Below, piece after piece: positions 8,256 through 36,442 of a stretch of 64,000 nucleotides of DNA. The number at the start of each line of letters is the position of its first letter. Position 1 is the stretch's first letter. The notes beneath the pieces are model-generated. The model did no database searches. It had not been told where the DNA came from and saw nothing but the letters and a program-made list of their open reading frames with translations. The DNA lies in contig DATIYJ010000029.1 in NCBI GenBank assembly GCA_035517655.1, forward strand, positions 18,230 through 82,229. Reading direction: 5' to 3'. Source of the stretch: Nitrospiria bacterium (lineage in GTDB: Bacteria; Nitrospirota; Nitrospiria; JACQBZ01). A program made the position numbers and the translations under genes.

Positions 8256-9383
8256 TCACTGCACCGTCACGGTGGCGCCGGAGCAGAAGGTGTTGTTCCC
8301 TTCGTCCGTCTCGACCACGGCATTGAGCGAATCGGCCATGGCACAGACATAGTAAGTGCCCACCGGTACCGTGCTTGGTATCGATAGACTCGTGGTGGCC
8401 GAACTGCTCGCCCCTGCTGCTAATAATGTCACCGATCGGATCGTCGAGATCACTACATCATCCGAATCGCCATAAATATTATTCACCGATAGCCTAAAGC
8501 CGATCCGGAACGCGGTGCTGGCGATCAACCCCTGGTTTTGGACCGTGTTGCCCACCGAAAGCGTTGACCTGCGATTGACCGTGGCCGCATTCGGCGTCAC
8601 GGCCGTCATCTCCAGATCCGCACGCGTGACCTGGACCGGCGTGGCCGTGCAATTCGCGTTGTTGTTCTCATTCCCTTCCGCGACCGTGTTGCCGCTGTCG
8701 GCCATCGCGCAGACGTAGTAAAACCCAGGAGGCGTGCTGGACGGAACAGTCAGCGTGTTTGTAGCTGTGCTGCTCGCCCCAATGGCCAAGGCTGTTAAGG
8801 ATCGAGTCAACGCCATCGCAATGTCGTCTGCCCCGCTATACGTCGCATCCGATGAGAAATGGAAAGCGATCGTAAAAGCCCCGGCTTTTGATCCTCCCTG
8901 GTTCTTCACCGTGTTGGAAAGCGTGAAAGTCTTGCCCGGCGCCACCGCCGTCGCCGTGGCAGAGACCGCGGTCATAGTCAGATCCGCGGCCGGCACAGTA
9001 ACCGTGCCTGAGCCGCATAACGTGTTATTGGTCTCGTCCGTCTCGACCACGGCGTTCACGGGATTTCCACCATTGTCGCTCAAATCTTTCACAAAGGGTG
9101 CCTGTGCCAAGGCCCACCTTTGGAGCTGAGTGACCTGAATGCTCAGGGAACCGGTGCACCGTGTATTGTTGGTCTCGTCGGATTCGGCTACGCTATTCGC
9201 GTTGTCAGCCTTCGCGCACACAACGTAGCTTCCCGGAGGAGTTGTGGAAGGAAAAGTGAGCGTCGTCGTAGCCGTGCTGCTCGCCCCCGCCGCTAATGAA
9301 CCGACTGATCGGGTGGCCGTGAAAGCAATATCATCGGCATCCCCATAGACCGTGTTGGTCGAAAGATGAAACGCCACAACCAA
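8256..9383 (-). pseudogene. CARDB-repeat cell-surface protein, apparently 5'-truncated (3.5 CARDB repeats, no signal peptide, TTG pseudo-start)
   Basis: Repeats of NQG..A..F.IAFH.S.D..Y...DD....T.RS...LAAGASS.AT..L..PS..P.G.YYVCA.AD..N.V.E..E.NN. The reading frame stays open upstream to about 9445, matching repeat consensus (ARSVSNTVTNQ) with no ATG. It then runs into unrelated AT-rich sequence with a stop near 9531-9533. Confidence 0.55.
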
Positions 9384-9445
9384 CGATCCAGTCGAGGTGG
9401 TTTCCTGATTTGTAACTGTGTTTGAGACAGAACGTGCCGGGCAAT

Positions 9446-10140
9446 CATTCGGAGATTCTCTTTTTGAGGAAATTGATGAGGAGTTCTCCCGATATGAGTT
9501 AAAAATCTCTCTTTTAGTTGCTGGATTCGATCAAAATGGACATGGTCACATTTTTAGTATAGAAAGTTGCGAACCGATGTTTATATTTTACAATATGGAA
9601 AGCATCCAATTAAATTGCATGAAAAAGATATTGATGATGATGTTCTTGCTAAAATCTGCGGAGTACTTCATCCTGAATAATTTGCCTCACCACAGATAGA
9701 TAAGCTAAATAAAATACCTGAATTAAGTCGGTTTCCTAAGATAGTAAAAAAACAAAAAAAGAAATGACCAGTTTCAGATTTATTTATTTTTCTTTTTCCA
9801 CCGTGCCATTGCTGCTTTTTTTGCAATTTGTTTCCGCTTAAAAGAAGGGAGAGATGCGGCCCGTGCTTTTCCACCCTTTAGCCCTCCGAGTCGTCCAAGT
9901 GCTACTGCCGCGGGATTTTTCGGTTTCTCTGACCCTTCTGTAGCTGCTTTGAGGATTTCGAAGCAGTTACGTTTTCATCTTTGCTTGATCGCTTAGGCAT
10001 GATGTGATTACGCCATGCCATATTGTAGAAATCAATAGGCCAGAAAATCAAACTGACCCACTACCAAAGTGGGGGTTTTAGCTACGGGTTTGATAAAGTG
10101 GAGGGAGCAATTTTTTATAGCGCGCTTCCATCAGGAGAGG
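9446..10140. other. Low-GC (~35-40%) non-coding insert, compositionally foreign. Probable remnant of a horizontally acquired or mobile segment.
   Basis: Abrupt GC drop against ~62% flanks. Poly-A/T runs. The only ORF (9418-9699) is low complexity. The insert abuts the truncated CARDB gene on one side and the HepT/MNT pair on the other. Confidence 0.5.
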
Positions 10141-10143
10141 CTG

Positions 10144-10575
10144 CTACTCGGGCGCGTTCTTTTTGACAAACGCGTTAATGGCCTGTAGATATTTTGGGAT
10201 GTCTCTTAGGGCAAACTGAAGTCCTTCATAAACCTTCCGTTCATCAATCTCATCATATTCATGTACGATTCGGTTCCGTAGCCCGGATGCCCCCGCCAGT
10301 GTTCGCGCAAAGATGGGTTCCAGAACGCCGAGCCGTCCCAGTTCTACAAAGGATTCAAAATAGTCTTTGGGCGGCGGATGTCCGAGTTCAGTGACAATAT
10401 GGTAATTGATATCAATCATCCGGCCTATTATGCGTTCAAGGTAACGCTCGGCCAGGACTTCGTAAGTGGGATTTTAAAGATAAGCATCCAATGAAAATTC
10501 GGCGTAAGGCTCCAGGGCCTTGAGGTCTTTGCCGATGAGGCTTATCTTTCGGATCACCAGGGTGCGGTCGATCAC
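10144..10575 (-). pseudogene. hepT: HepT-family (DUF86, HEPN RxxxxHEY) toxin gene interrupted by an in-frame TAA
   Basis: C-terminal part is ORF 10144-10419 with GLRNRIVHEYDEID (HEPN Rx4HxY). Hand translation shows the same frame continuing upstream as VIDRTLVIRKISLIGKDLKALEPYAEFSLDAYL-TAA(10474-10476)-NPTYEVLAERYLERIIGRMIDINYH. A GTG start at 10575 overlaps the MNT stop (GTGA). Confidence 0.55.
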
Positions 10576-10991
10576 GAAGCCATCCCGGTTCTCTTTAGAA
10601 GTTGCTCAACGTATTGCCGTTCCATCTCAAAATAGCGGCGGTGGTCTTGATACCGTTTGAAGGTATAGATTTTAAGTTCCATCAGCCTACCAGGCGCGCC
10701 GTAAAGGAGGCGGCAGTTTTCGGTGATCTTTTTCAGAATGAGAGGATCGGCATGGTTGATGATACTGAGGTCAACGGGCTGATCGGGGAAAATTTTCTGG
10801 AAACCATGGACGAGCTCGGAATATTCCGGACTGGTGGGGCTGCGTTCTTTCCGGAACAGCACCGCGATATCAAGGTCGCTTCCGGCATGCCGCTTGCCGG
10901 TCAGGGCCGATCCAAAAAGCAGAATCAAACTGATCCCATGTCGATCGGCAATCCGGTTTAATTTTTTTCTTTCCTCGACGGCGAGTTCCAC
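10572..10991 (-). CDS. mntA: MNT-type nucleotidyltransferase antitoxin (partner of HepT)
   Basis: 139 aa. LFGSALTGKRHAGSDLDIAV is the GSx9-13DxD minimal nucleotidyltransferase motif. Immediately upstream of and overlapping hepT. Confidence 0.8.
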   Translation of the reverse strand: MELAVEERKKLNRIADRHGISLILLFGSALTGKRHAGSDLDIAVLFRKERSPTSPEYSELVHGFQKIFPDQPVDLSIINHADPLILKKITENCRLLYGAPGRLMELKIYTFKRYQDHRRYFEMERQYVEQLLKRTGMAS

Positions 10992-11104
10992 GATCGGGAT
11001 CCTTACGGGTTGTTTAAACCCATGGTCGGATTATACCGGCATCGAGACGGTCCGTCAAGGAGATGTATGCGTTTGCCTTCATTCAACCCGTTGGGCTGAC
11101 TTAT

Positions 11105-11130
11105 TGAAGAACCCCGCCCTCACAGGCGGG
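11105..11130 (-). terminator. GC-rich hairpin downstream of hydrolase gene (possible terminator)
   Basis: ccccgccctcacaggcgggg forms a 7-bp perfect stem CCCCGCC/GGCGGGG. On the minus strand it is followed by ttcttcaataag (weak T-tract). Confidence 0.3.
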
Positions 11131-11177
11131 GATTACGCTCGCTACACGGATCAAACAGGAAGGGAAGAAACGATGAC

Positions 11178-11834
11178 TCAAGCCGACTTCGAACTGAGAT
11201 GCCGCGCGAACCATCGGGCCGCAAGGCGGGCCACTTCCTCCAGAGCGCCGGGTTCTTCAAACAGATGGGTCGCCCCCGGAATGACGGCCAACTCCTTCTC
11301 CCCCTTGAGCCGATCATAGGCCTGCTGATTGAGTTCGATGACGACGTCGTCATCGCCCCCGACGATCAGCAGGGTCGGCGTCTTCACGCGATCGAGAACG
11401 GGCCCGGCCAGATCGGGACGCCCTCCCCGCGAGACAACCGCCCGCACCGTCGGGCCCAGAGCGGCAGCCGCCTCGAGCGCCGCGGCGGCGCCCGTGCTGG
11501 CCCCAAAATAGCCGACCTTCAACTTCTTTGTTTCCGACCGCCCCGTCAGCCATCGCGTGGCCGCGGTCAAGCGATCCGTCAGCAGAGAGATGTCGAAGCG
11601 CGTTTCATAGACGGCGTCTTCCGGCTCGGTGAGAAGATCGAACAACAGGGTTCCGATGCCGTTTTCGCGCAATACCCTCGCGACATAATTATTCCGGGGA
11701 CTGCGGCGGCTGCTGCCGCTGCCGTGCGCGAACAGCACCACGCCCTGCGCCCCGGCGGGAATCGCAAGCATTCCCTCCAGGTTCACGGCATCCGCTCGGA
11801 TGCGCACAAGATGCTCGGGACTTTCCTTCGCCAT
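11178..11834 (-). CDS. Alpha/beta hydrolase, dienelactone hydrolase family
   Basis: 218 aa. VVLFAHGSGSS, GxSxG-like YFGASTGAAAAL, and LLIVGGDDD..IPGATHLF point to a DLH-like fold. Confidence 0.75.
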   Translation of the reverse strand: MAKESPEHLVRIRADAVNLEGMLAIPAGAQGVVLFAHGSGSSRRSPRNNYVARVLRENGIGTLLFDLLTEPEDAVYETRFDISLLTDRLTAATRWLTGRSETKKLKVGYFGASTGAAAALEAAAALGPTVRAVVSRGGRPDLAGPVLDRVKTPTLLIVGGDDDVVIELNQQAYDRLKGEKELAVIPGATHLFEEPGALEEVARLAARWFARHLSSKSA

Positions 11835-29999: not shown

Positions 30000-30021
30000 A
30001 CGTCACTCCCCCGCTTTGTCC

Positions 30022-32409
30022 TCATCCTTTGATCTGGGCCAGCGTCGTCCGGGCCTCCTCGATGCCGGGAAAAGACCGGGCGGCATGAACCGCCTTGGCC
30101 AGATACCGCTTGGCTTTATCCTCATTTCCCGCTTTGTAATACGCCATCCCGAGATGGTAATAGAGGATCGGACGATCGGGCATCCTTGTTTCGATCTTTT
30201 GAAACACCCGTACTCCGTCCTCAACCCGGCCCATTTTCACGTAGACCCATCCCAAGGTATCCAAAAAAAGCGGATTGGGGGCATTCTTCTCGAAGTCCCG
30301 GCTTAATGCGAGCGCGCGATCCAGACTCTGAGAGTCTCCGCGGCGCTCCGTCAGCAACGAGGCCAAATTGTTGGCGGCCACCAGGGCTTTGGGGTTCTTT
30401 TCCAGGACTTTTTCGTAGAGTTGAATCGCCCGGTCGGTTTGTCCGATCTGCGTTTGGGCCGAAGCGAGGAGCACTTGGAGCTGTTCCGATTTCGGATTCG
30501 CTTGAAGACCTTTTTCCAGGACCTGCGCCGCCTCGGACGGCCGGGCTTGAAGAAGCTTCAAGTTCGACAGGTCGATCCAAGGGGTGACCCAATCCGGTTT
30601 GATCCGGATCCCTTCTAAAAACTCGTGCTCCGCTCCGGTCTGATCCTTCTGCAACACTAAAATCTCACCCAACATTCCATGGGCGTAGGGTTGTTCGGGA
30701 TGAGCGGAAATCAACTTCCGAAGTCGATCGATGCCTTCTTGCTTTTTCCCCTGGGCCAGCTCGACCTGCATCCGTGCAAACAAAGGTTCGGGTGCGTCCG
30801 GTCGAAGGCTCATGGCGCGTTCATAGGCCTTGGTCGCTCTCTCCCATTGCTTGCGCGCCTGGCCAAGATTTCCCTCCGCCATGTCCCCCGGGAAAGGGTC
30901 GCCGCCGGCCGCTTGAATCCGGGTGAGTGTCGCCTCGGCGCCGCGCCATTCCTGGTCCCCCATTTGCAGGGTCAACATCATTCCCAAGGTTTCAATGTCG
31001 TTCGGAAGCTCTTTGAGGATCGCTTCCAGGCGTCCGCGGGCGGCCTCGCGGTTTCCCTCTGCGGCATCCAAGCGGGCCAGGGCCCGACGGGCGTCAAACT
31101 GCCGGCCATCCAATGCAACGCCTTTCTCCAAGCTTTCACGGCCCAGGTGCTCCTCGCCCGCCAGCAGGTAGGCCTGTCCTAACAAGACATGGACATCCGC
31201 CCTTTCGGGCTGATCCTTGAGCACGCTCCGGAAGGCCTGAACGGCGTCCCGGCCTTCTCCGTCGAGCAGCGAGATCTTGCCTTCCAAAAGCAGGGCGTCA
31301 GATGAGCGGGTATTTTTCTTCAACACTTCCTGCAGGCGCTTATCCGCCGCGTCCCGTTTTCCTTCGGCGAAATCCAATTCGGCCAGTTTCACCCGGGCGT
31401 CGAGCCCTTGGGGACGATCTTCCTGGTCGTCCGCGATCCGTTCGTAGACTTTCCGGGCTTCATCGGGCTCATGGGCTTTTTGGTATAGCTGTCCCAAGGC
31501 AAACTGAAACTTGGCGGCCTCGCCCGATTTTTTGATCGCTTCCAGAAGAACCGCTTCGCCTTCTTTGATCCCTTTGTGGGCGGTCACAAACTCGGCAAGG
31601 CCCAGCCAGCCCTGATCGTTGTCCGGATCCAGACGGATCGCTTTTCTCAAGGTCGTTTCGGCCTTGTCCAACTCATGGTATTGTTCGTAGAACCCCGCCA
31701 GTCTTAAGCGGTGTTCAAAAACATGCGGTTCCACCTCGACCATTCTTTGAAAAAGAGGCTCCGCCTCGTCTTTTTTATCCAGATGGACCAGGATGTTCCC
31801 AAGGTTGCTGAGCAGGACGATGTTGTTGGGATTCGCTTCAACCGCCCTTCGTAAAATTTTCTCGGCCTCTTCCGGCCGCTGTTGACGGGCATAGAGGGCC
31901 GCCAACAGGCTGGCCGCATCCGGCTCCTTGGGATGAAGCCGCAGCACGTCTTCGGTCGCCCTGATCGCCTCCCCCACCTTCCCGTCGCGCACCATAAGAG
32001 CCGCTTTCAGGATCTCGGCCTGGGCATCGCCGGGATATTTTTTCAACACCCTATCCGCCATCTCCGCGACCTTGTCCGACATTCCGGCATCCAGATAGTA
32101 TCGCCCCAGTTGGATCAAGGTCTCGCGGTGATCCGGATTGATTTCCACGACCCGGAGATAGTAGCCGAACGCCTCCTGCCAGTTTTTTTCTTTTTCTTCC
32201 ACCTGGGCATACATGAAATAGGCGTCGGGATCCTTGGGATCAATCTTTAAGACATTGCGCAGCGCCACGCGGGCCTTCGGCCAGTTTCCATCCTGCATGT
32301 ACTGCTTCGCCCGCGCCGTGTATTCGGCCTTTCGGGCCTCCGGGCTGCCGCACCCGACGACAGCCGCCAGGATCAGCAGCGGGACCGCCGTCCAGATTTT
32401 CATTCGCAT
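30022..32409 (-). CDS. TPR-repeat lipoprotein (PrsT-like, PEP-CTERM system)
   Basis: ATG at 32409 (MRMKIWTAVPLLILAAVVGCGS lipobox). About 790 aa of tandem TPR repeats. Confidence 0.8.
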   Translation of the reverse strand: MRMKIWTAVPLLILAAVVGCGSPEARKAEYTARAKQYMQDGNWPKARVALRNVLKIDPKDPDAYFMYAQVEEKEKNWQEAFGYYLRVVEINPDHRETLIQLGRYYLDAGMSDKVAEMADRVLKKYPGDAQAEILKAALMVRDGKVGEAIRATEDVLRLHPKEPDAASLLAALYARQQRPEEAEKILRRAVEANPNNIVLLSNLGNILVHLDKKDEAEPLFQRMVEVEPHVFEHRLRLAGFYEQYHELDKAETTLRKAIRLDPDNDQGWLGLAEFVTAHKGIKEGEAVLLEAIKKSGEAAKFQFALGQLYQKAHEPDEARKVYERIADDQEDRPQGLDARVKLAELDFAEGKRDAADKRLQEVLKKNTRSSDALLLEGKISLLDGEGRDAVQAFRSVLKDQPERADVHVLLGQAYLLAGEEHLGRESLEKGVALDGRQFDARRALARLDAAEGNREAARGRLEAILKELPNDIETLGMMLTLQMGDQEWRGAEATLTRIQAAGGDPFPGDMAEGNLGQARKQWERATKAYERAMSLRPDAPEPLFARMQVELAQGKKQEGIDRLRKLISAHPEQPYAHGMLGEILVLQKDQTGAEHEFLEGIRIKPDWVTPWIDLSNLKLLQARPSEAAQVLEKGLQANPKSEQLQVLLASAQTQIGQTDRAIQLYEKVLEKNPKALVAANNLASLLTERRGDSQSLDRALALSRDFEKNAPNPLFLDTLGWVYVKMGRVEDGVRVFQKIETRMPDRPILYYHLGMAYYKAGNEDKAKRYLAKAVHAARSFPGIEEARTTLAQIKG

Positions 32410-32455
32410 CGTCTCGCTCCCTCGTTCCACAAAATACGCCACACCCAATCCCCTT

Positions 32456-34099
32456 CTACGTTGCCCAGGCCCGGACCCCAAGAATCATCAGAGACCAGAG
32501 CACCACCATGCCCAACAGGTTCAACCGATTCGAAAGCTTGACCAGAAGCAGCTCATACGCAAAAAAAAGGACGACAAGTTTCAACACGAGCAGGCCGAGA
32601 AGGATCTCGCCCAGGCGCATATCGGAGAGGCTCGGGATGATCATCGCGACCAGCAAGACGAGAAAATCGAGCGGCGTGACCCGGAAAGAGGCCTCCCGAT
32701 TCAGTTGAATGGCGATCAGGACCGACACCGCCATCAACACGAAGAAAAGGTTCACCGTCGTATGGAGCGAGCGGCCGGCGGCGGGGAAACCCCGCTCGCT
32801 CAGGTAAATCAAAAATGAACCCACCACATACAAGCCCAGACGGATCAGAAGCGGGATCGCCCGGCGGAAGGTCAGGAAGCCGCCGAGTAAAAGGCCGAAC
32901 AACAGGACCGCAAATAATCCGAAATCGGCCGGGATCTGATGGGGGACAAAAGCGCCCAATCCCAAAAAAAGAAGCACCCCCGTCCCCAAAAACCAAAAGG
33001 AGATTTCCGCCAGAAAACGCGACTCCTTGATTCGTCGCATCAGGAGCACCGAAATCGAACGGTCCCGGGCCGGCCGCCCCCAATGGAGTCGACCGCGTGC
33101 CACCAGCGCGGAAAAAACAAAAACAAGCACCGCAAAAAAACCATACACGGCCAACAACTCGGCGTCGTCATGCCAGCGCATCAGGTAGGCCAGGCCGATC
33201 ATCGTCGCCTGAAGGACGTAAATAATCACGACGGCCTCGTGATGGAAAAATCCGACCGATAAAAGCTTGTGGTGGATATGATTTTTATCCGGGAGAAAGG
33301 GGGACCGACCCGCGGCAAGGCGGTGGCCCATCACCATGAGCGTATCCAGCACCGGCAAACCGATAATGAGAAGGGCCAGAACCGGGCTGAACGGCGATCG
33401 AGAGGGATCGCTCAGCATAACGGCGGAAACGCCCGCGGAAAACCCGAGGAATTGACTCCCGCCGTCCCCCATGAAAATCTGCGCCGGATAGGTATTGAAG
33501 CGCAAAAATCCCAGAACGCTGCCGAGCACGGAGAACGAAATGATCATCACAACGGGGTCTCCCGAAAGGTAGGCCAGGTAGGCCAGCCCCGCGAAGCTGA
33601 GGAGACAAAGTCCCCCGGCCAGGCCGTCCAGTCCGTCCGACAGATTGATGGCGTTCGTGATGCCCAGCAACGCCACGACCGTCAACGGGGCGGCCAGCCA
33701 CGGCAGGAAACCCGTCCCATCCAGAAAAGGGATGCTTTTCAACCGGATGCCTCCGTATCCCACCGCGATCAGGATCGCCAACAGTTGCACCAGAAACTTC
33801 GACTTGAAACCGAGACTCGCGCGGTCGTCCCACACCCCGAAAAAAAGAATGACCACCGCGCCCATCAGATACGAAAAAGCCTCCCGATCCATCGGCGCAA
33901 AGATAAGAATCGATGTCAAGGCGCCGGCGGCAAACGCAATCCCCCCCACCCGCACGACCGGCGCGTCGTGCATCTTCCGATCGCCGGGCATGTCCAGTAG
34001 ATGAAAGGGGCCCGCCCATCGCATGAGCGGGGGGATCAACGCGATGCAGATCAGCAACGAACTCACGAAAGCGTAAAAGAGCGTCATTTCCATTTTCAA
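32456..34099 (-). CDS. Polyprenol-phosphate sugar-1-phosphate transferase (WecA/MraY family, GT4 priming enzyme) with extra C-terminal TM domain
   Basis: 547 aa. GVWDD, NAINLSDGLDGLAGG and IFMGDGGSQ motifs. Polytopic membrane protein. Confidence 0.8.
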   Translation of the reverse strand: MKMEMTLFYAFVSSLLICIALIPPLMRWAGPFHLLDMPGDRKMHDAPVVRVGGIAFAAGALTSILIFAPMDREAFSYLMGAVVILFFGVWDDRASLGFKSKFLVQLLAILIAVGYGGIRLKSIPFLDGTGFLPWLAAPLTVVALLGITNAINLSDGLDGLAGGLCLLSFAGLAYLAYLSGDPVVMIISFSVLGSVLGFLRFNTYPAQIFMGDGGSQFLGFSAGVSAVMLSDPSRSPFSPVLALLIIGLPVLDTLMVMGHRLAAGRSPFLPDKNHIHHKLLSVGFFHHEAVVIIYVLQATMIGLAYLMRWHDDAELLAVYGFFAVLVFVFSALVARGRLHWGRPARDRSISVLLMRRIKESRFLAEISFWFLGTGVLLFLGLGAFVPHQIPADFGLFAVLLFGLLLGGFLTFRRAIPLLIRLGLYVVGSFLIYLSERGFPAAGRSLHTTVNLFFVLMAVSVLIAIQLNREASFRVTPLDFLVLLVAMIIPSLSDMRLGEILLGLLVLKLVVLFFAYELLLVKLSNRLNLLGMVVLWSLMILGVRAWAT

Positions 34100-35697
34100 T
34101 GCGGAATGAACCGGCCCAAAAGCGGACGGATCTCCCGCGTAAATTCCGCGAGAAGATGGTCGGCGTCCGAGTCGCTCGTCCCTTTGGCTACGGGAGCCGT
34201 CAAACGGATCAGGGCCCCGTCGGTTCTGTTTTTCGTTAAGGCATCCCAGAAAAGATAGAACTTGACCCGATACTCGTCGGTCAGAATTCTTCCCCGCTGC
34301 TGAAACCAGTAATAAACGACCTGCTTCTCGGTTCCCCTTTGGATGACCGCGCGGTTGACCGTCAAATTTTCCCCCGCCCGCGCCGCATCGATCCTCCTCT
34401 CCTCCAAGGCGGTAATCTCCCAGCCCCCTCCGGGAATGCAGGTCCGGGGGGAATGGGCCGATTGACCTTTCTTCTGCGATCGATAGTAAGCGATGTAAAG
34501 ATTAACGGGCGGACCGACGGGGCCCCGATAGTCCGCGAGGAGGTAGTCGTCAAACCGGAGGGCTTTTACGTATTCCTCCTCCATCGGGTAACTGTTTCCC
34601 GCCCAGCTTCCCAATTTCATCGGGAAGTCGGAAAACGTCGCCCGAGAAGGCGGAATCTCTTCTCCCGACACGAGCTGGGTCGAGGCCATGATCACCGGCA
34701 CGAAAAGAGCCAGGGACACGAGGTAGGCGGGGGAGGACAACAACGAGACCGGCGTCCGGGAAAGCGCGCCCTCTTTTCCGACGGCTTCCGCTTTCACCGG
34801 CGGAGGACCGAACCACTCGGCCAGGGAACGCCGTTTCCCCCGCGCGCCGATCCGGCCGAGGATCCACATTTCACCGAACAGAATCAGAAGACTGCAGACA
34901 AAGAGGAGCCAACCCGAGAAACTGTGGAAAAATCCTTCCGCAGGACCTCGTCCATAATGATCGACCAGCAGACCGGTCACGCCGATTCGAAACCCGTTAA
35001 GAAAAATAGCGATCGGAAAACTCGACAAAAAAAGGAACGCCCGCTTCCAGCGGGTCTCCCGGTAGAGATAGGCGCAGACCAAGGCCAGCGTGGACAGAGG
35101 GAAAAGATATCTCAAACCGCTGCAGGCCTCCGCAACCTGCAGCTGAATCGGTCCGAGGTCGATCACGTTTCCTTCCCGAAAGGCCGTCACTCCCATCAGT
35201 TTTAATATTCCCACCCCGAGTCCGGAAGAGATCAGCTGCAAGCGGGCTGAAAAACCCTGGTAGAGGAAGTCGGGAAGAGGAATCATGGTCAGGAGAAAAA
35301 AAACGGGGAAGGCGATCTCTTTCACGCCGCGTCCCCCGAGGGTCGAGAGCAACAGCCCGATCACAACCAAAAAAAGCGAAAGGTGGACCAGAACATAGAG
35401 GGTGGAAAGTTCCCCGATAAAATAAAGCCCCAAACCGGCCAGCACGAGCGGGAGCCCCCACCAGGTTCCGACCCGGCCCATCGTCCGCAGCCTCTCGCGC
35501 CGTTGCCAGATCAGGTAGAGGGAGATCAGCGGAACAAAGAAGCCGTAGCCGTAATTTTCATCGACGTACCACATTTTCACCATATAAGCGATTCCCTGGT
35601 GATAGATAATCCCCAGCAGGAGAACGGGAAGAGCCGCCATCGGCCAAAACCGGCGCTTGAACAGGATTTCCGCAACGCTGGTCGATACGAATTCCAT
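34096..35697 (-). CDS. Exosortase (Xrt family) fused to C-terminal EpsI-like domain
   Basis: 533 aa. Eight TM helices. Active-site Cys (VAEACSGLRYL) and conserved Arg (FLNGFRIG). C-terminal ~230 aa periplasmic domain resembles EpsI (…AYYRSQKKGQSAHSPRTCIPGGGWEI…). 4-bp overlap with the priming transferase. Confidence 0.85.
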   Translation of the reverse strand: MEFVSTSVAEILFKRRFWPMAALPVLLLGIIYHQGIAYMVKMWYVDENYGYGFFVPLISLYLIWQRRERLRTMGRVGTWWGLPLVLAGLGLYFIGELSTLYVLVHLSLFLVVIGLLLSTLGGRGVKEIAFPVFFLLTMIPLPDFLYQGFSARLQLISSGLGVGILKLMGVTAFREGNVIDLGPIQLQVAEACSGLRYLFPLSTLALVCAYLYRETRWKRAFLFLSSFPIAIFLNGFRIGVTGLLVDHYGRGPAEGFFHSFSGWLLFVCSLLILFGEMWILGRIGARGKRRSLAEWFGPPPVKAEAVGKEGALSRTPVSLLSSPAYLVSLALFVPVIMASTQLVSGEEIPPSRATFSDFPMKLGSWAGNSYPMEEEYVKALRFDDYLLADYRGPVGPPVNLYIAYYRSQKKGQSAHSPRTCIPGGGWEITALEERRIDAARAGENLTVNRAVIQRGTEKQVVYYWFQQRGRILTDEYRVKFYLFWDALTKNRTDGALIRLTAPVAKGTSDSDADHLLAEFTREIRPLLGRFIPH

Positions 35698-35707
35698 CGT
35701 CCGTCCG

Positions 35708-36442
35708 TCACCCGATCACAAATTGCCAGAACACCCGCGCGGCGAATCGGGGCAGCGCGGTCTGCCGCAACAGACGCCTCGGTTCGGAGAGCAAGCGATA
35801 AAGCCATTCGAGGTGCATCTTACGGATGAACATGGGCGCGCGCTTCACCCGTCCGGACAGCACGTCGAACGTTCCGCCCACTCCCTGGCACACTTTGACC
35901 TTGAGCCGGGGGAGATATTGCTCCAGCCAAAGCTCTTGCTTGGGGCTGCCCAAGGCGATGAAAAGCACATCCGCTCCCGAAGCATTGATGCGATCGATCA
36001 AGAAGGGCATCTCGTTCTCTTTGAGATAGCCGTGCTGCCCCCCTACAATCCGAAGGCCCGGAAAGCGCCGACGCAGCGCCTCCATCACGTCCCGGTTGAC
36101 CTCCGGGCCGGCCCCGAAAAGAAAAATCCGATACTGTTTTCGCGCGGCCCGCTCGCAGATGGCCGGCATCAACTCGGAACCCGGCACCCGTTCCATCTTC
36201 CCCAAGCCCAGAAGGCGCGCCGCCATCACCACGCCGATCCCGTCCGGAATCAACAGGCGGGCCTCCCGAAGCTGGGCCAGGAGCGCCGGATTCTTTCTCG
36301 CCTTGATCACCTTCTCGGGATTCACCGCGACCACCATCCCGGGCCGATCGTCCCGCATCATCTCCTCCACGGCGCTTAAGGCCTGCGACATGTTAACGCA
36401 GTCCACCGGCACGCCGAGCAACTCGATTCGTTTGGGCTTCAT
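35708..36442 (-). CDS. WecB/TagA/CpsF-family glycosyltransferase (GT26)
   Basis: 244 aa. LLGVPVDCVNMSQALSAVEEMM...NPEKVIKARKNPAL...LLIPDGIGVV...FLFGAGPEV is the GT26 signature. Confidence 0.8.
   Translation of the reverse strand: MKPKRIELLGVPVDCVNMSQALSAVEEMMRDDRPGMVVAVNPEKVIKARKNPALLAQLREARLLIPDGIGVVMAARLLGLGKMERVPGSELMPAICERAARKQYRIFLFGAGPEVNRDVMEALRRRFPGLRIVGGQHGYLKENEMPFLIDRINASGADVLFIALGSPKQELWLEQYLPRLKVKVCQGVGGTFDVLSGRVKRAPMFIRKMHLEWLYRLLSEPRRLLRQTALPRFAARVFWQFVIG

What the first reader, a model, noticed from the sequence alone, without database searches (positions are those of the whole stretch)
10144..10575. hepT toxin gene carries an in-frame TAA; translationally coupled GTGA overlap with mntA preserved
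Hand translation shows one continuous HepT frame. It begins at GTG (10575, overlapping the mntA TGA stop), runs through the N-terminal helix (VIDRTLVIRKISLIGKDLKALEPYAEFSLDAYL), hits TAA at 10474-10476, and continues to the HEPN RNase motif GLRNRIVHEYDEID. Either the toxin is inactivated while the antitoxin survives (a common TA decay route), or a 91-aa C-terminal fragment from the internal ATG at 10419 is still made. Stop-codon readthrough is a less likely alternative.
Basis: seen in the sequence. Interest (0 to 1): 0.5.

Follow-up and report, generated by a model that had tools for sequence, protein, structure and literature searches.

The report
Recently broken hepT toxin gene
A toxin gene of a common bacterial toxin-antitoxin pair (HepT/MntA) has been knocked out by a single premature stop codon while its antitoxin partner remains intact, which is the usual first step in the decay of such modules and is ordinary.

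Summary
On the minus strand, 10575..10144 is one 144-codon HepT frame. It starts at a GTG that overlaps the mntA TGA (GTGA) and is interrupted once, by TAA at 10474-10476 (codon 34). Curated HepT profiles align across the stop. The closest intact homologues (73-85% identical, 143 aa) carry Lys there (AAA or AAG), so one A-to-T change explains it. It is not a read error: nine other contigs from several metagenomes, forming five SNP haplotypes with the window, all carry the TAA. It is not recoding either. TAA is the commonest real terminator in the window, and none of 27 aligned homologues has a stop there. No significant RNA structure follows the stop. The lesion is young. Every invariant HepT residue is retained, and dN/dS against the nearest homologue is 0.17 for both hepT and mntA. 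mntA, its catalytic motif and a near-consensus promoter are intact. A fragment restarting at Met53 would lack helix 1 and the first 17 residues of helix 2, the main dimerisation helix. It also has no usable ribosome-binding site, so it is probably inactive. Verdict: an ordinary toxin-first decay of a type VII toxin-antitoxin module in an uncultured Nitrospiria bacterium. Low interest.

The parts
11030..11058 (-). Sigma-70-type promoter TTGACG-17-TATAAT upstream of mntA. A GACGGaCCGTC palindrome overlaps the -35 element and spacer and may be an operator.
   Evidence: 11 of 12 consensus matches. One search shows the promoter and palindrome conserved in the 85%-identical module of L010.
10572..10991 (-). 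mntA, an intact 139-aa MNT-family adenylyltransferase antitoxin gene with a GTG start and TGA stop.
   Evidence: PF18765/PF01909; NF047752 MntA_antitoxin 69.3 bits (cutoff 60). It is intact in all 10 copies, with one I/F polymorphism. Shine-Dalgarno duplex -8.1 kcal/mol.
10869..10913 (-). MntA catalytic motif GSX10DXD (G27 S28 ... D39 L D41).
   Evidence: Read from the translation. The motif is as defined in PMC7641770.
10572..10575 (-). GTGA overlap: the hepT GTG start overlaps the mntA TGA stop. This is the usual translational-coupling arrangement.
   Evidence: The same 4-base overlap is present in the intact modules L010 and L011.
10144..10575 (-). hepT pseudogene: a 143-codon HepT (HEPN RNase toxin) frame with one internal TAA, ending at TAG 10144-10146.
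10474..10476 (-). Premature TAA at codon 34. The codon is Lys (AAA or AAG) in the closest intact homologues. Relative to AAA, the change is A to T at 10476 on the minus strand.
   Evidence: Present in all 9 related contigs.
10474..10575 (-). Residual 33-codon N-terminal ORF, covering helix 1 and the short helix 29-33. It is still translationally coupled to mntA.
   Evidence: Helix map. Shine-Dalgarno duplex -6.5 kcal/mol.
10144..10419 (-). 91-codon C-terminal ORF from internal Met53. It holds the C-terminal 11 residues of helix 2 and helices 3-5. It is probably not translated efficiently.
   Evidence: Shine-Dalgarno duplex only -2.9 kcal/mol. The weak AGG lies in a predicted hairpin arm. NCBI instead annotates a 103-aa product from CTG codon 41.
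10255..10278 (-). HepT RNase and AMPylation motif RX4HXY (R100 N R I V H105 E Y107), still intact.
   Evidence: The motif is as defined in PMC7641770.
10132..11080 (-). Extent of the module (promoter, mntA, hepT) that is homologous, at 84.6% DNA identity, to the intact module on contig L010. The flanks are unrelated.

Best explanation
This is a class I (type VII) MntA/HepT toxin-antitoxin module in which the toxin gene has recently become a pseudogene. A single nonsense mutation is responsible: Lys34 AAA to TAA, which is T to A at 10476 on the plus strand.

Shown: the stop is real and lies inside the HepT domain. It is fixed across all sampled haplotypes of this uncultured Nitrospiria population. 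It is absent from every homologue examined. The rest of the gene and the whole of mntA look intact.

Inferred: the operon is still transcribed from its near-consensus promoter. Ribosomes finishing mntA still couple into hepT at the GTGA overlap but terminate after 33 codons, giving only a helix-1 peptide. No active RNase is made, because the HEPN helical bundle and the helix-2 dimer interface cannot form. MntA is left as an orphan adenylyltransferase with no cognate substrate. It persists either because too little time has passed or because it can neutralise related HepT toxins elsewhere (an anti-addiction role). The expected next step is loss of mntA.
For: - One internal TAA in an otherwise continuous HepT frame. 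Curated HMMs align across it.
- 1186 homologues were found. The best 120 are 139-159 aa, apart from this locus's own fragment.
- The six closest intact homologues have Lys at position 34. The codon is AAG in L010 and AAA in L011.
- The TAA is present in 9 of 9 other contigs from JGI, ENA and Logan assemblies. With the window these form 5 haplotypes, at 99.74-99.98% identity.
- No intact allele closer than 85% identity was found in the 5.8-billion-protein collection.
- TAA terminates 18 of 39 long ORFs in the window. No suppressor tRNA is present.
- dN/dS against L010 is 0.17 for hepT and 0.17 for mntA, and all invariant HepT columns are retained, so the lesion is young.
- One haplotype (L002) carries G51R at an invariant HepT column, between the stop and Met53. 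This is the kind of change expected once constraint is lifted.
- In the structure model of the 85%-identical intact homologue (pLDDT 89.8), helix 1 spans residues 4-26 and helix 2 spans 36-63. The model matches the solved A. flos-aquae HEPN toxin 7AE8 with TM 0.88.
- Helix 2 is the primary dimerisation locus (PMC11586414). Dimerisation is stated to be a prerequisite for HepT RNase activity (PMC13000451).
- Internal starts lack Shine-Dalgarno pairing: -0.5 and -2.9 kcal/mol, against -8.1 for mntA.
- Toxin-first, two-step decay is the documented common route for chromosomal toxin-antitoxin systems (PMC13617665).
Against: - No expression or activity data exist, so production of a C-terminal fragment by reinitiation after the TAA cannot be excluded. 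Candidate restarts are the CTG 19 nt downstream and the ATG 55 nt downstream.
- The C-terminal fragment keeps the whole RX4HXY motif and shows no further damage. That is equally what a still-selected fragment would look like. With only 2 SNPs in hepT across the population, relaxed selection cannot be demonstrated statistically.
- The nine contigs are partly re-assemblies of overlapping read sets, so the number of truly independent samples is smaller than nine. At least three JGI metagenomes are involved.
Confidence: 0.85

Rival explanations
1. A truncated HepT is still made by reinitiation or internal initiation: 91 aa from ATG 10419, or 103 aa from CTG 10455 as in the NCBI annotation. It retains some function, for example attenuated RNase activity, or a decoy or substrate role for MntA.
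For: The ORF is open and retains the complete RX4HXY motif and every invariant C-terminal residue. Gene callers at JGI, ENA, Logan and NCBI call it as a protein. The stop lies only 19-55 nt upstream of candidate restart codons, within the range where bacterial ribosomes can reinitiate (established knowledge, not tested here). The C-terminal part has dN/dS 0.15 against L010, although most of that divergence predates the stop.
Against: Shine-Dalgarno pairing is negligible at both candidate starts, -0.5 and -2.9 kcal/mol. The weak AGG before ATG 10419 lies in a predicted hairpin arm. The fragment lacks helix 1 and the first 17 of the 28 residues of helix 2, including the invariant E43, R44, L46, R48, G51 and R52. 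Helix 2 is the main dimer interface, and dimerisation is required for activity. None of the best 120 homologues has this short architecture.
Confidence: 0.1
2. Programmed or leaky readthrough of the TAA yields low levels of full-length HepT, so the stop acts as an expression attenuator of a still-functional toxin.
For: Apart from the stop the gene is flawless, and the coupling overlap and promoter are preserved. The stop is fixed in the population and is not a rare allele.
Against: TAA is the most efficient and most used terminator here, ending 18 of 39 long ORFs. No suppressor tRNA is in the window. The 100 nt around the stop show no significant structure (z = -1.3). None of 27 aligned homologues has a stop at this position, so nothing is conserved as a recoding signal would be. 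The G51R variant at an invariant column downstream of the stop in one haplotype argues against selection on a full-length product.
Confidence: 0.03
3. The TAA is a sequencing or assembly artefact and the real gene is intact.
For: Metagenome assemblies can carry consensus errors.
Against: The same TAA is present in 9 other contigs assembled by different pipelines from different runs and samples. Together with the window they carry 5 different flanking SNP haplotypes. NCBI's own MAG annotation also has a truncated product.
Confidence: 0.02

Closest known systems
[quoted passage not shown] Examples are Shewanella oneidensis SO_3166/SO_3165 (PDB 5YEP, 6M6U, 7BXO) and Aphanizomenon flos-aquae HEPN/MNT (PDB 7AE2, 7AE6, 7AE8, 7AE9).
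   Same: - Same gene order, with the antitoxin first and a 4-base overlap.
- Same sizes, 139 and 143 codons.
- Same Pfam and NCBIfam families, both above the curated cut-offs.
- RX4HXY in the toxin and GSX10DXD in the antitoxin, at the same residue numbers as S. oneidensis MntA (G27, S28, D39, D41).
- Sequence E 3.7e-27 to 7AE9. The fold of the 85%-identical homologue matches 7AE8 with TM 0.88.
   Different: The toxin ORF is interrupted by TAA at codon 34, so the module as encoded cannot make the toxin. Neither RNase activity nor AMPylation has been tested for this lineage.
Eroded chromosomal toxin-antitoxin loci with toxin-first pseudogenisation and orphan antitoxins (e.g. the Photorhabdus survey, PMC13617665).
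   Same: The toxin ORF is truncated while the antitoxin and promoter remain intact. The module is a small horizontally mobile unit: its homology to L010 ends about 90 bp upstream of mntA and 12 bp downstream of hepT, and the flanks are unrelated.
   Different: The documented surveys concern type II systems in cultured Enterobacterales. This is a type VII module in an uncultured Nitrospiria population, caught at the earliest stage with a single point mutation and no other damage.

Membership tests
Type VII HepT/MntA (class I HEPN/MNT) toxin-antitoxin system | Toxin belongs to the HepT/DUF86 HEPN family (PF01934; NCBIfam NF047751 equivalog) above the curated cut-off. | tested here: met
   PF01934 78.4 bits (cutoff 23.5). 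NF047751 95.5 bits (cutoff 60), covering the full-length profile 1-120. The query was the conceptual translation with X at the stop.
Type VII HepT/MntA (class I HEPN/MNT) toxin-antitoxin system | RX4HXY motif in the toxin: the RNase Rx4H plus the Tyr that accepts AMP. | tested here: met
   R100-NRIV-H105-E-Y107, invariant in 28 aligned sequences. Motif definition from PMC7641770.
Type VII HepT/MntA (class I HEPN/MNT) toxin-antitoxin system | Neighbouring MNT-family nucleotidyltransferase (PF01909; NF047752) with a GSX10DXD motif. | tested here: met
   NF047752 69.3 bits (cutoff 60). PF18765 and PF01909 also match. The motif is G27 S28 x10 D39 L D41.
Type VII HepT/MntA (class I HEPN/MNT) toxin-antitoxin system | Two-gene operon with the antitoxin upstream and overlapping the toxin start. 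| tested here: met
   GTGA overlap at 10572-10575. The intact relatives L010 and L011 have the same overlap.
Type VII HepT/MntA (class I HEPN/MNT) toxin-antitoxin system | Intact toxin reading frame able to encode the complete HEPN helical bundle. | tested here: not met
   TAA at codon 34, reproduced in 9 other contigs. The locus is therefore a degenerate member: by descent it belongs to the family, but as encoded it is not a functional toxin-antitoxin pair.
Type VII HepT/MntA (class I HEPN/MNT) toxin-antitoxin system | Toxin is a growth-inhibiting RNase that is neutralised by MntA-catalysed oligoAMPylation of the motif Tyr. | not testable with these tools
   This needs kill/rescue and mass-spectrometry assays.
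Programmed stop-codon readthrough or stop-codon reassignment | The stop is conserved at the same position in related genes. | tested here: not met
   None of 27 aligned homologues has a stop at column 34. The residues there are K, R, A, S, G, T or E. The best 120 hits are full length.
Programmed stop-codon readthrough or stop-codon reassignment | The codon is not used as an ordinary terminator in the organism, or a suppressor tRNA or stimulatory RNA structure is present. | tested here: not met
   TAA ends 18 of 39 long ORFs. The only tRNA in the window is tRNA-Met. The fold z-score is -1.3. Only the 64-kb window could be searched for tRNAs.

The most novel reading that the evidence does not exclude
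The nonsense allele is maintained and is not merely decaying. The coupled 33-codon helix-1 peptide and a reinitiated C-terminal fragment (91 or 103 aa) would be co-produced and reassemble non-covalently into a split HepT. Alternatively, the fragment alone would serve as a non-toxic AMPylation substrate or decoy. Either way, a killer module would become an attenuated, conditionally active one, fixed across a natural Nitrospiria population.
Probability: 0.04. Interest if true: 0.55.

Novelty: already known. Interest (0 to 1): 0.12.

Why it matters
It matters little beyond annotation. The gene should be flagged as a hepT pseudogene. Public records currently give a 91-aa (JGI, ENA, Logan) or 103-aa (NCBI HUK56179.1) 'HepT-like ribonuclease' protein. 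mntA should be flagged as an orphan antitoxin. The locus is a clean natural snapshot of the earliest step of toxin-first decay in a type VII toxin-antitoxin module: one point mutation, fixed across several strain haplotypes, with no other damage. It could serve as a small data point in surveys of toxin-antitoxin erosion, which so far concentrate on type II systems. It opens no new question.

Tried and rejected
- **Sequencing error: rejected.** The 91-aa product was looked up by exact sequence and found on 9 contigs. All carry the TAA, with differing flanking SNPs.
- **Alternative genetic code or suppressor: rejected.** This rests on stop-codon usage of long ORFs and the tRNA scan.
- **Readthrough-stimulating structure: not found.** Folding 10400-10500 on the minus strand gave z = -1.3, not significant.
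- **Genuine short HepT proteins starting at the internal Met: not found.** There are none among the best 120 homologues.
- **Second HepT/MntA pair that orphan MntA might serve: not found in the window.** tblastn of both proteins against the window found only the locus itself. The rest of the genome could not be searched.
- **Syntenic intact orthologue in a sister genome: not found.** The closest intact modules, L010 and L011, sit in unrelated contexts.
- **Non-coding RNA in the gap below hepT: not found.** The Rfam scan of 9200-11300 gave only a sub-threshold chance hit.
- **Population test of relaxed selection: no power.** There are only 2 SNPs in hepT, one non-synonymous and one synonymous, both in a single haplotype.
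- **PADLOC: uninformative.** HepT had no hit. MntA matched only the candidate nucleotidyltransferase family PDC-S09.

Full report
**1. The observation**

Reading the minus strand from 10575 to 10144 gives one 144-codon frame:

VIDRTLVIRKISLIGKDLKALEPYAEFSLDAYL*NPTYEVLAERYLERIIGRMIDINYHIVTELGHPPPKDYFESFVELGRLGVLEPIFARTLAGASGLRNRIVHEYDEIDERKVYEGLQFALRDIPKYLQAINAFVKKNAPE*

- The only internal stop is TAA at 10474-10476, which is codon 34.
- The GTG start (10575-10573) overlaps the TGA stop of the upstream 139-codon ORF at 10572..10991, giving a GTGA overlap.
- The ORF list confirms a 33-aa ORF (10474..10575) and a 91-aa ORF from ATG 10419 (10144..10419) in the same frame.

**2. One HepT gene, not two chance ORFs**

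- With X at the stop, the conceptual protein matches Pfam PF01934 (HepT-like) over residues 18-133, E 4.7e-22.
- It also matches the NCBIfam equivalog NF047751 (type VII HepT toxin) over residues 10-129, aligned to the whole 120-position profile, at 95.5 bits against a cut-off of 60.
- Both alignments run straight through codon 34.
- The upstream gene matches NF047752 (MntA antitoxin, 69.3 bits, cut-off 60), PF18765 and PF01909.
- The two motifs used to define class I HEPN/MNT pairs (PMC7641770) are both present.
  - RX4HXY in HepT is R100-NRIV-H105-E-Y107.
  - GSX10DXD in MntA is G27 S28 ... D39 L D41. These are the same residue numbers as in the Shewanella oneidensis enzyme.

**3. What the homologues show**

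- A search of the 5.8-billion-protein collection returned 1186 homologues. The best 120 are 139-159 aa long. The single exception is P0029, the 91-aa fragment of this very locus. Genuine HepT proteins therefore do not begin at the internal Met.
- In an alignment with 27 homologues, the window sequence keeps all 33 invariant columns.
- At column 34 the six closest intact proteins (73-85% identical) have Lys. More distant ones have R, A, S, G, T or E, and none has a stop.
- The DNA of two intact modules was fetched. Codon 34 is AAG in L010 (85% protein identity) and AAA in L011. Both have the same 4-base mntA/hepT overlap.
- One transversion, AAA to TAA, is therefore enough to explain the lesion.

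**4. Not an error, not recoding**

- The exact 91-aa product is encoded on nine other contigs from JGI, ENA and Logan assemblies.
- Eight of these are identical over the whole hepT frame. The ninth (L002) differs at two bases. All nine carry the TAA.
- The contigs differ from the window by 1-15 SNPs over 2.7-6.3 kb. Within the shared 1.8 kb around the module they form five haplotypes. The stop is therefore fixed in a population that has strain diversity.
- TAA is the commonest terminator of long ORFs in the window, ending 18 of 39. Those ORFs cover 88% of the window, so the code is standard and the assembly is not riddled with broken genes.
- The only tRNA in the window is tRNA-Met.
- The 101 nt around the stop fold no better than shuffles, z = -1.3.

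**5. Age of the lesion**

- Against L010, dN/dS is 0.17 for hepT and 0.17 for mntA, at dS of about 0.5. Within hepT it is 0.23 for codons 1-52 and 0.15 for codons 53-143.
- Almost all divergence therefore accumulated while both genes were under purifying selection, so the stop is recent.
- The only hint of relaxed constraint is haplotype L002. It has Gly51 to Arg at an invariant HepT column lying between the stop and Met53, plus one synonymous change.
- Two SNPs give no statistical power.

**6. What can still be made**

- An AlphaFold2 model of the 85%-identical intact homologue P0001 has pLDDT 89.8 and pTM 0.85. Its helices are at 4-26, 29-33, 36-63, 72-81, 87-97, 99-103 and 112-140.
- The model superposes on the solved Aphanizomenon flos-aquae HEPN toxin (7AE8) with TM 0.88, and on S. 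oneidensis HepT (5YEP) with TM 0.78. By sequence the window protein hits 7AE9 at E 3.7e-27.
- Codon 34 lies in the short loop before helix 2.
- The coupled translation product is thus a 33-residue peptide comprising helix 1 and the short helix 29-33.
- A restart at Met53 would lack helix 1 and the first 17 of the 28 residues of helix 2. These include the invariant E43, R44, L46, R48, G51 and R52.
- According to the Legionella HEPN-MNT structural paper, helix 2 is the primary dimerisation locus in this toxin and its homologues (PMC11586414).
- Predicted pairing of the 20 nt upstream of each start with the 16S 3' end:

| Start | Duplex energy (kcal/mol) |
|---|---|
| mntA GTG | -8.1 |
| hepT GTG | -6.5 |
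| CTG codon 41 | -0.5 |
| ATG codon 53 | -2.9 |

- In the predicted fold, the weak AGG before the ATG sits in a hairpin arm.
- I infer that no active toxin is made. This step is inference and is not shown.

**7. The rest of the module**

- A near-consensus promoter, TTGACG-17-TATAAT at 11058..11030 on the minus strand, precedes mntA.
- The promoter is conserved in L010 together with a GACGGnCCGTC palindrome that overlaps the -35 element and the spacer.
- DNA homology to L010 runs from 11080 to 10132 at 84.6% and stops there.
- L010 and L011 sit in unrelated neighbourhoods. The roughly 950-bp promoter-mntA-hepT unit therefore behaves as a horizontally mobile cassette.
- Here it is inserted between a dienelactone-hydrolase gene and a low-GC gap upstream of a CARDB-repeat protein gene.
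- No second HepT or MntA is present in the window.

**8. Origin and existing annotation**

- Exact-sequence look-ups place the neighbouring proteins in an NCBI third-party-annotated MAG named 'Nitrospiria bacterium' (HUK56176-HUK56183).
- NCBI annotates HUK56179.1 there as a 103-aa 'HepT-like ribonuclease domain-containing protein' beginning MAERYLERI. That start corresponds to the CTG at codon 41.
- JGI, ENA and Logan call the 91-aa ORF, and JGI also calls the 33-aa ORF.
- None of these records marks it as a pseudogene.

**9. Comparison with what is known**

- By descent the locus is a textbook class I / type VII MntA-HepT module. All sequence-level defining features are met except an intact toxin frame.
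- Toxin-first, two-step erosion of chromosomal toxin-antitoxin systems is well documented. One example is the Photorhabdus survey. Most of its predicted systems that failed the kill-rescue assay had truncated toxin ORFs. Its decay patterns indicate that toxin inactivation precedes antitoxin loss (PMC13617665).
- This case differs only in being a type VII module in an uncultured lineage, caught after a single mutation.

**10. Verdict**

- The finding is an ordinary young pseudogene with an orphaned antitoxin.
- My probabilities are:

| Reading | Probability |
|---|---|
| Dead toxin | about 0.85 |
| Expressed C-terminal fragment with some residual role | about 0.10 |
| Readthrough | about 0.03 |
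| Artefact | about 0.02 |

- Interest is low (0.12). The main practical consequence is a correction to the annotation.

Noticed in passing
window 11030-11058 (minus strand): A near-perfect sigma-70 promoter (TTGACG-17-TATAAT) precedes mntA. A perfect 5+5 palindrome, GACGGaCCGTC, overlaps the -35 element and spacer. Both are conserved in the 85%-identical module on L010, so the palindrome is a plausible autoregulatory operator.
   Followed up: partly
window 9384-10143: A gap of about 760 bp with lower GC (about 0.51, against 0.59 for the window) lies between hepT and the CARDB-repeat gene. It has no ORF with a Pfam match. The 93-aa (9418..9699 +) and 49-aa (9902..10051 -) ORFs are orphans. It contains a 15-pair hairpin followed by a T-run at 9939-9971 (+). 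Rfam found nothing above chance.
   Followed up: partly
window 10453-10455 (minus strand CTG, codon 41 of hepT): NCBI's MAG annotation (HUK56179.1, 103 aa, 'HepT-like ribonuclease domain-containing protein') starts the truncated product at a CTG codon and does not flag a pseudogene. JGI, ENA and Logan aa from ATG 10419. The public annotations disagree with each other, and none marks the gene as broken.
   Followed up: yes
L002 2845-3276 (equivalent to window 10425 and 10408): One population haplotype (JGI 3300033158) carries Gly51 to Arg at an invariant HepT column downstream of the stop, plus a synonymous Ile56 change. This is the only variation within hepT among the 10 copies.
   Followed up: yes
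window 10739: mntA has an Ile/Phe polymorphism in the population (PLILKK versus PLFLKK, in L003 and L009). The intact relatives L010 and L011 have Phe, so the window allele (Ile) may be the derived one.
   Followed up: partly
window 30000-36000: AT skew swings sharply, from -0.17 to +0.28. The swing coincides with minus-strand genes for an 819-aa TPR protein, a glycosyltransferase family 4 membrane protein and an exosortase EpsH/DUF3485 fusion. This is an exopolysaccharide / PEP-CTERM sorting locus, and the skew is probably the codon composition of membrane proteins.
   Followed up: partly
window 8256-9383 (minus strand): A 375-aa protein made of three CARDB repeats lies immediately downstream of the toxin-antitoxin module. 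Most of the SNPs that distinguish the population haplotypes cluster in or near it (8605-9104).
   Followed up: no
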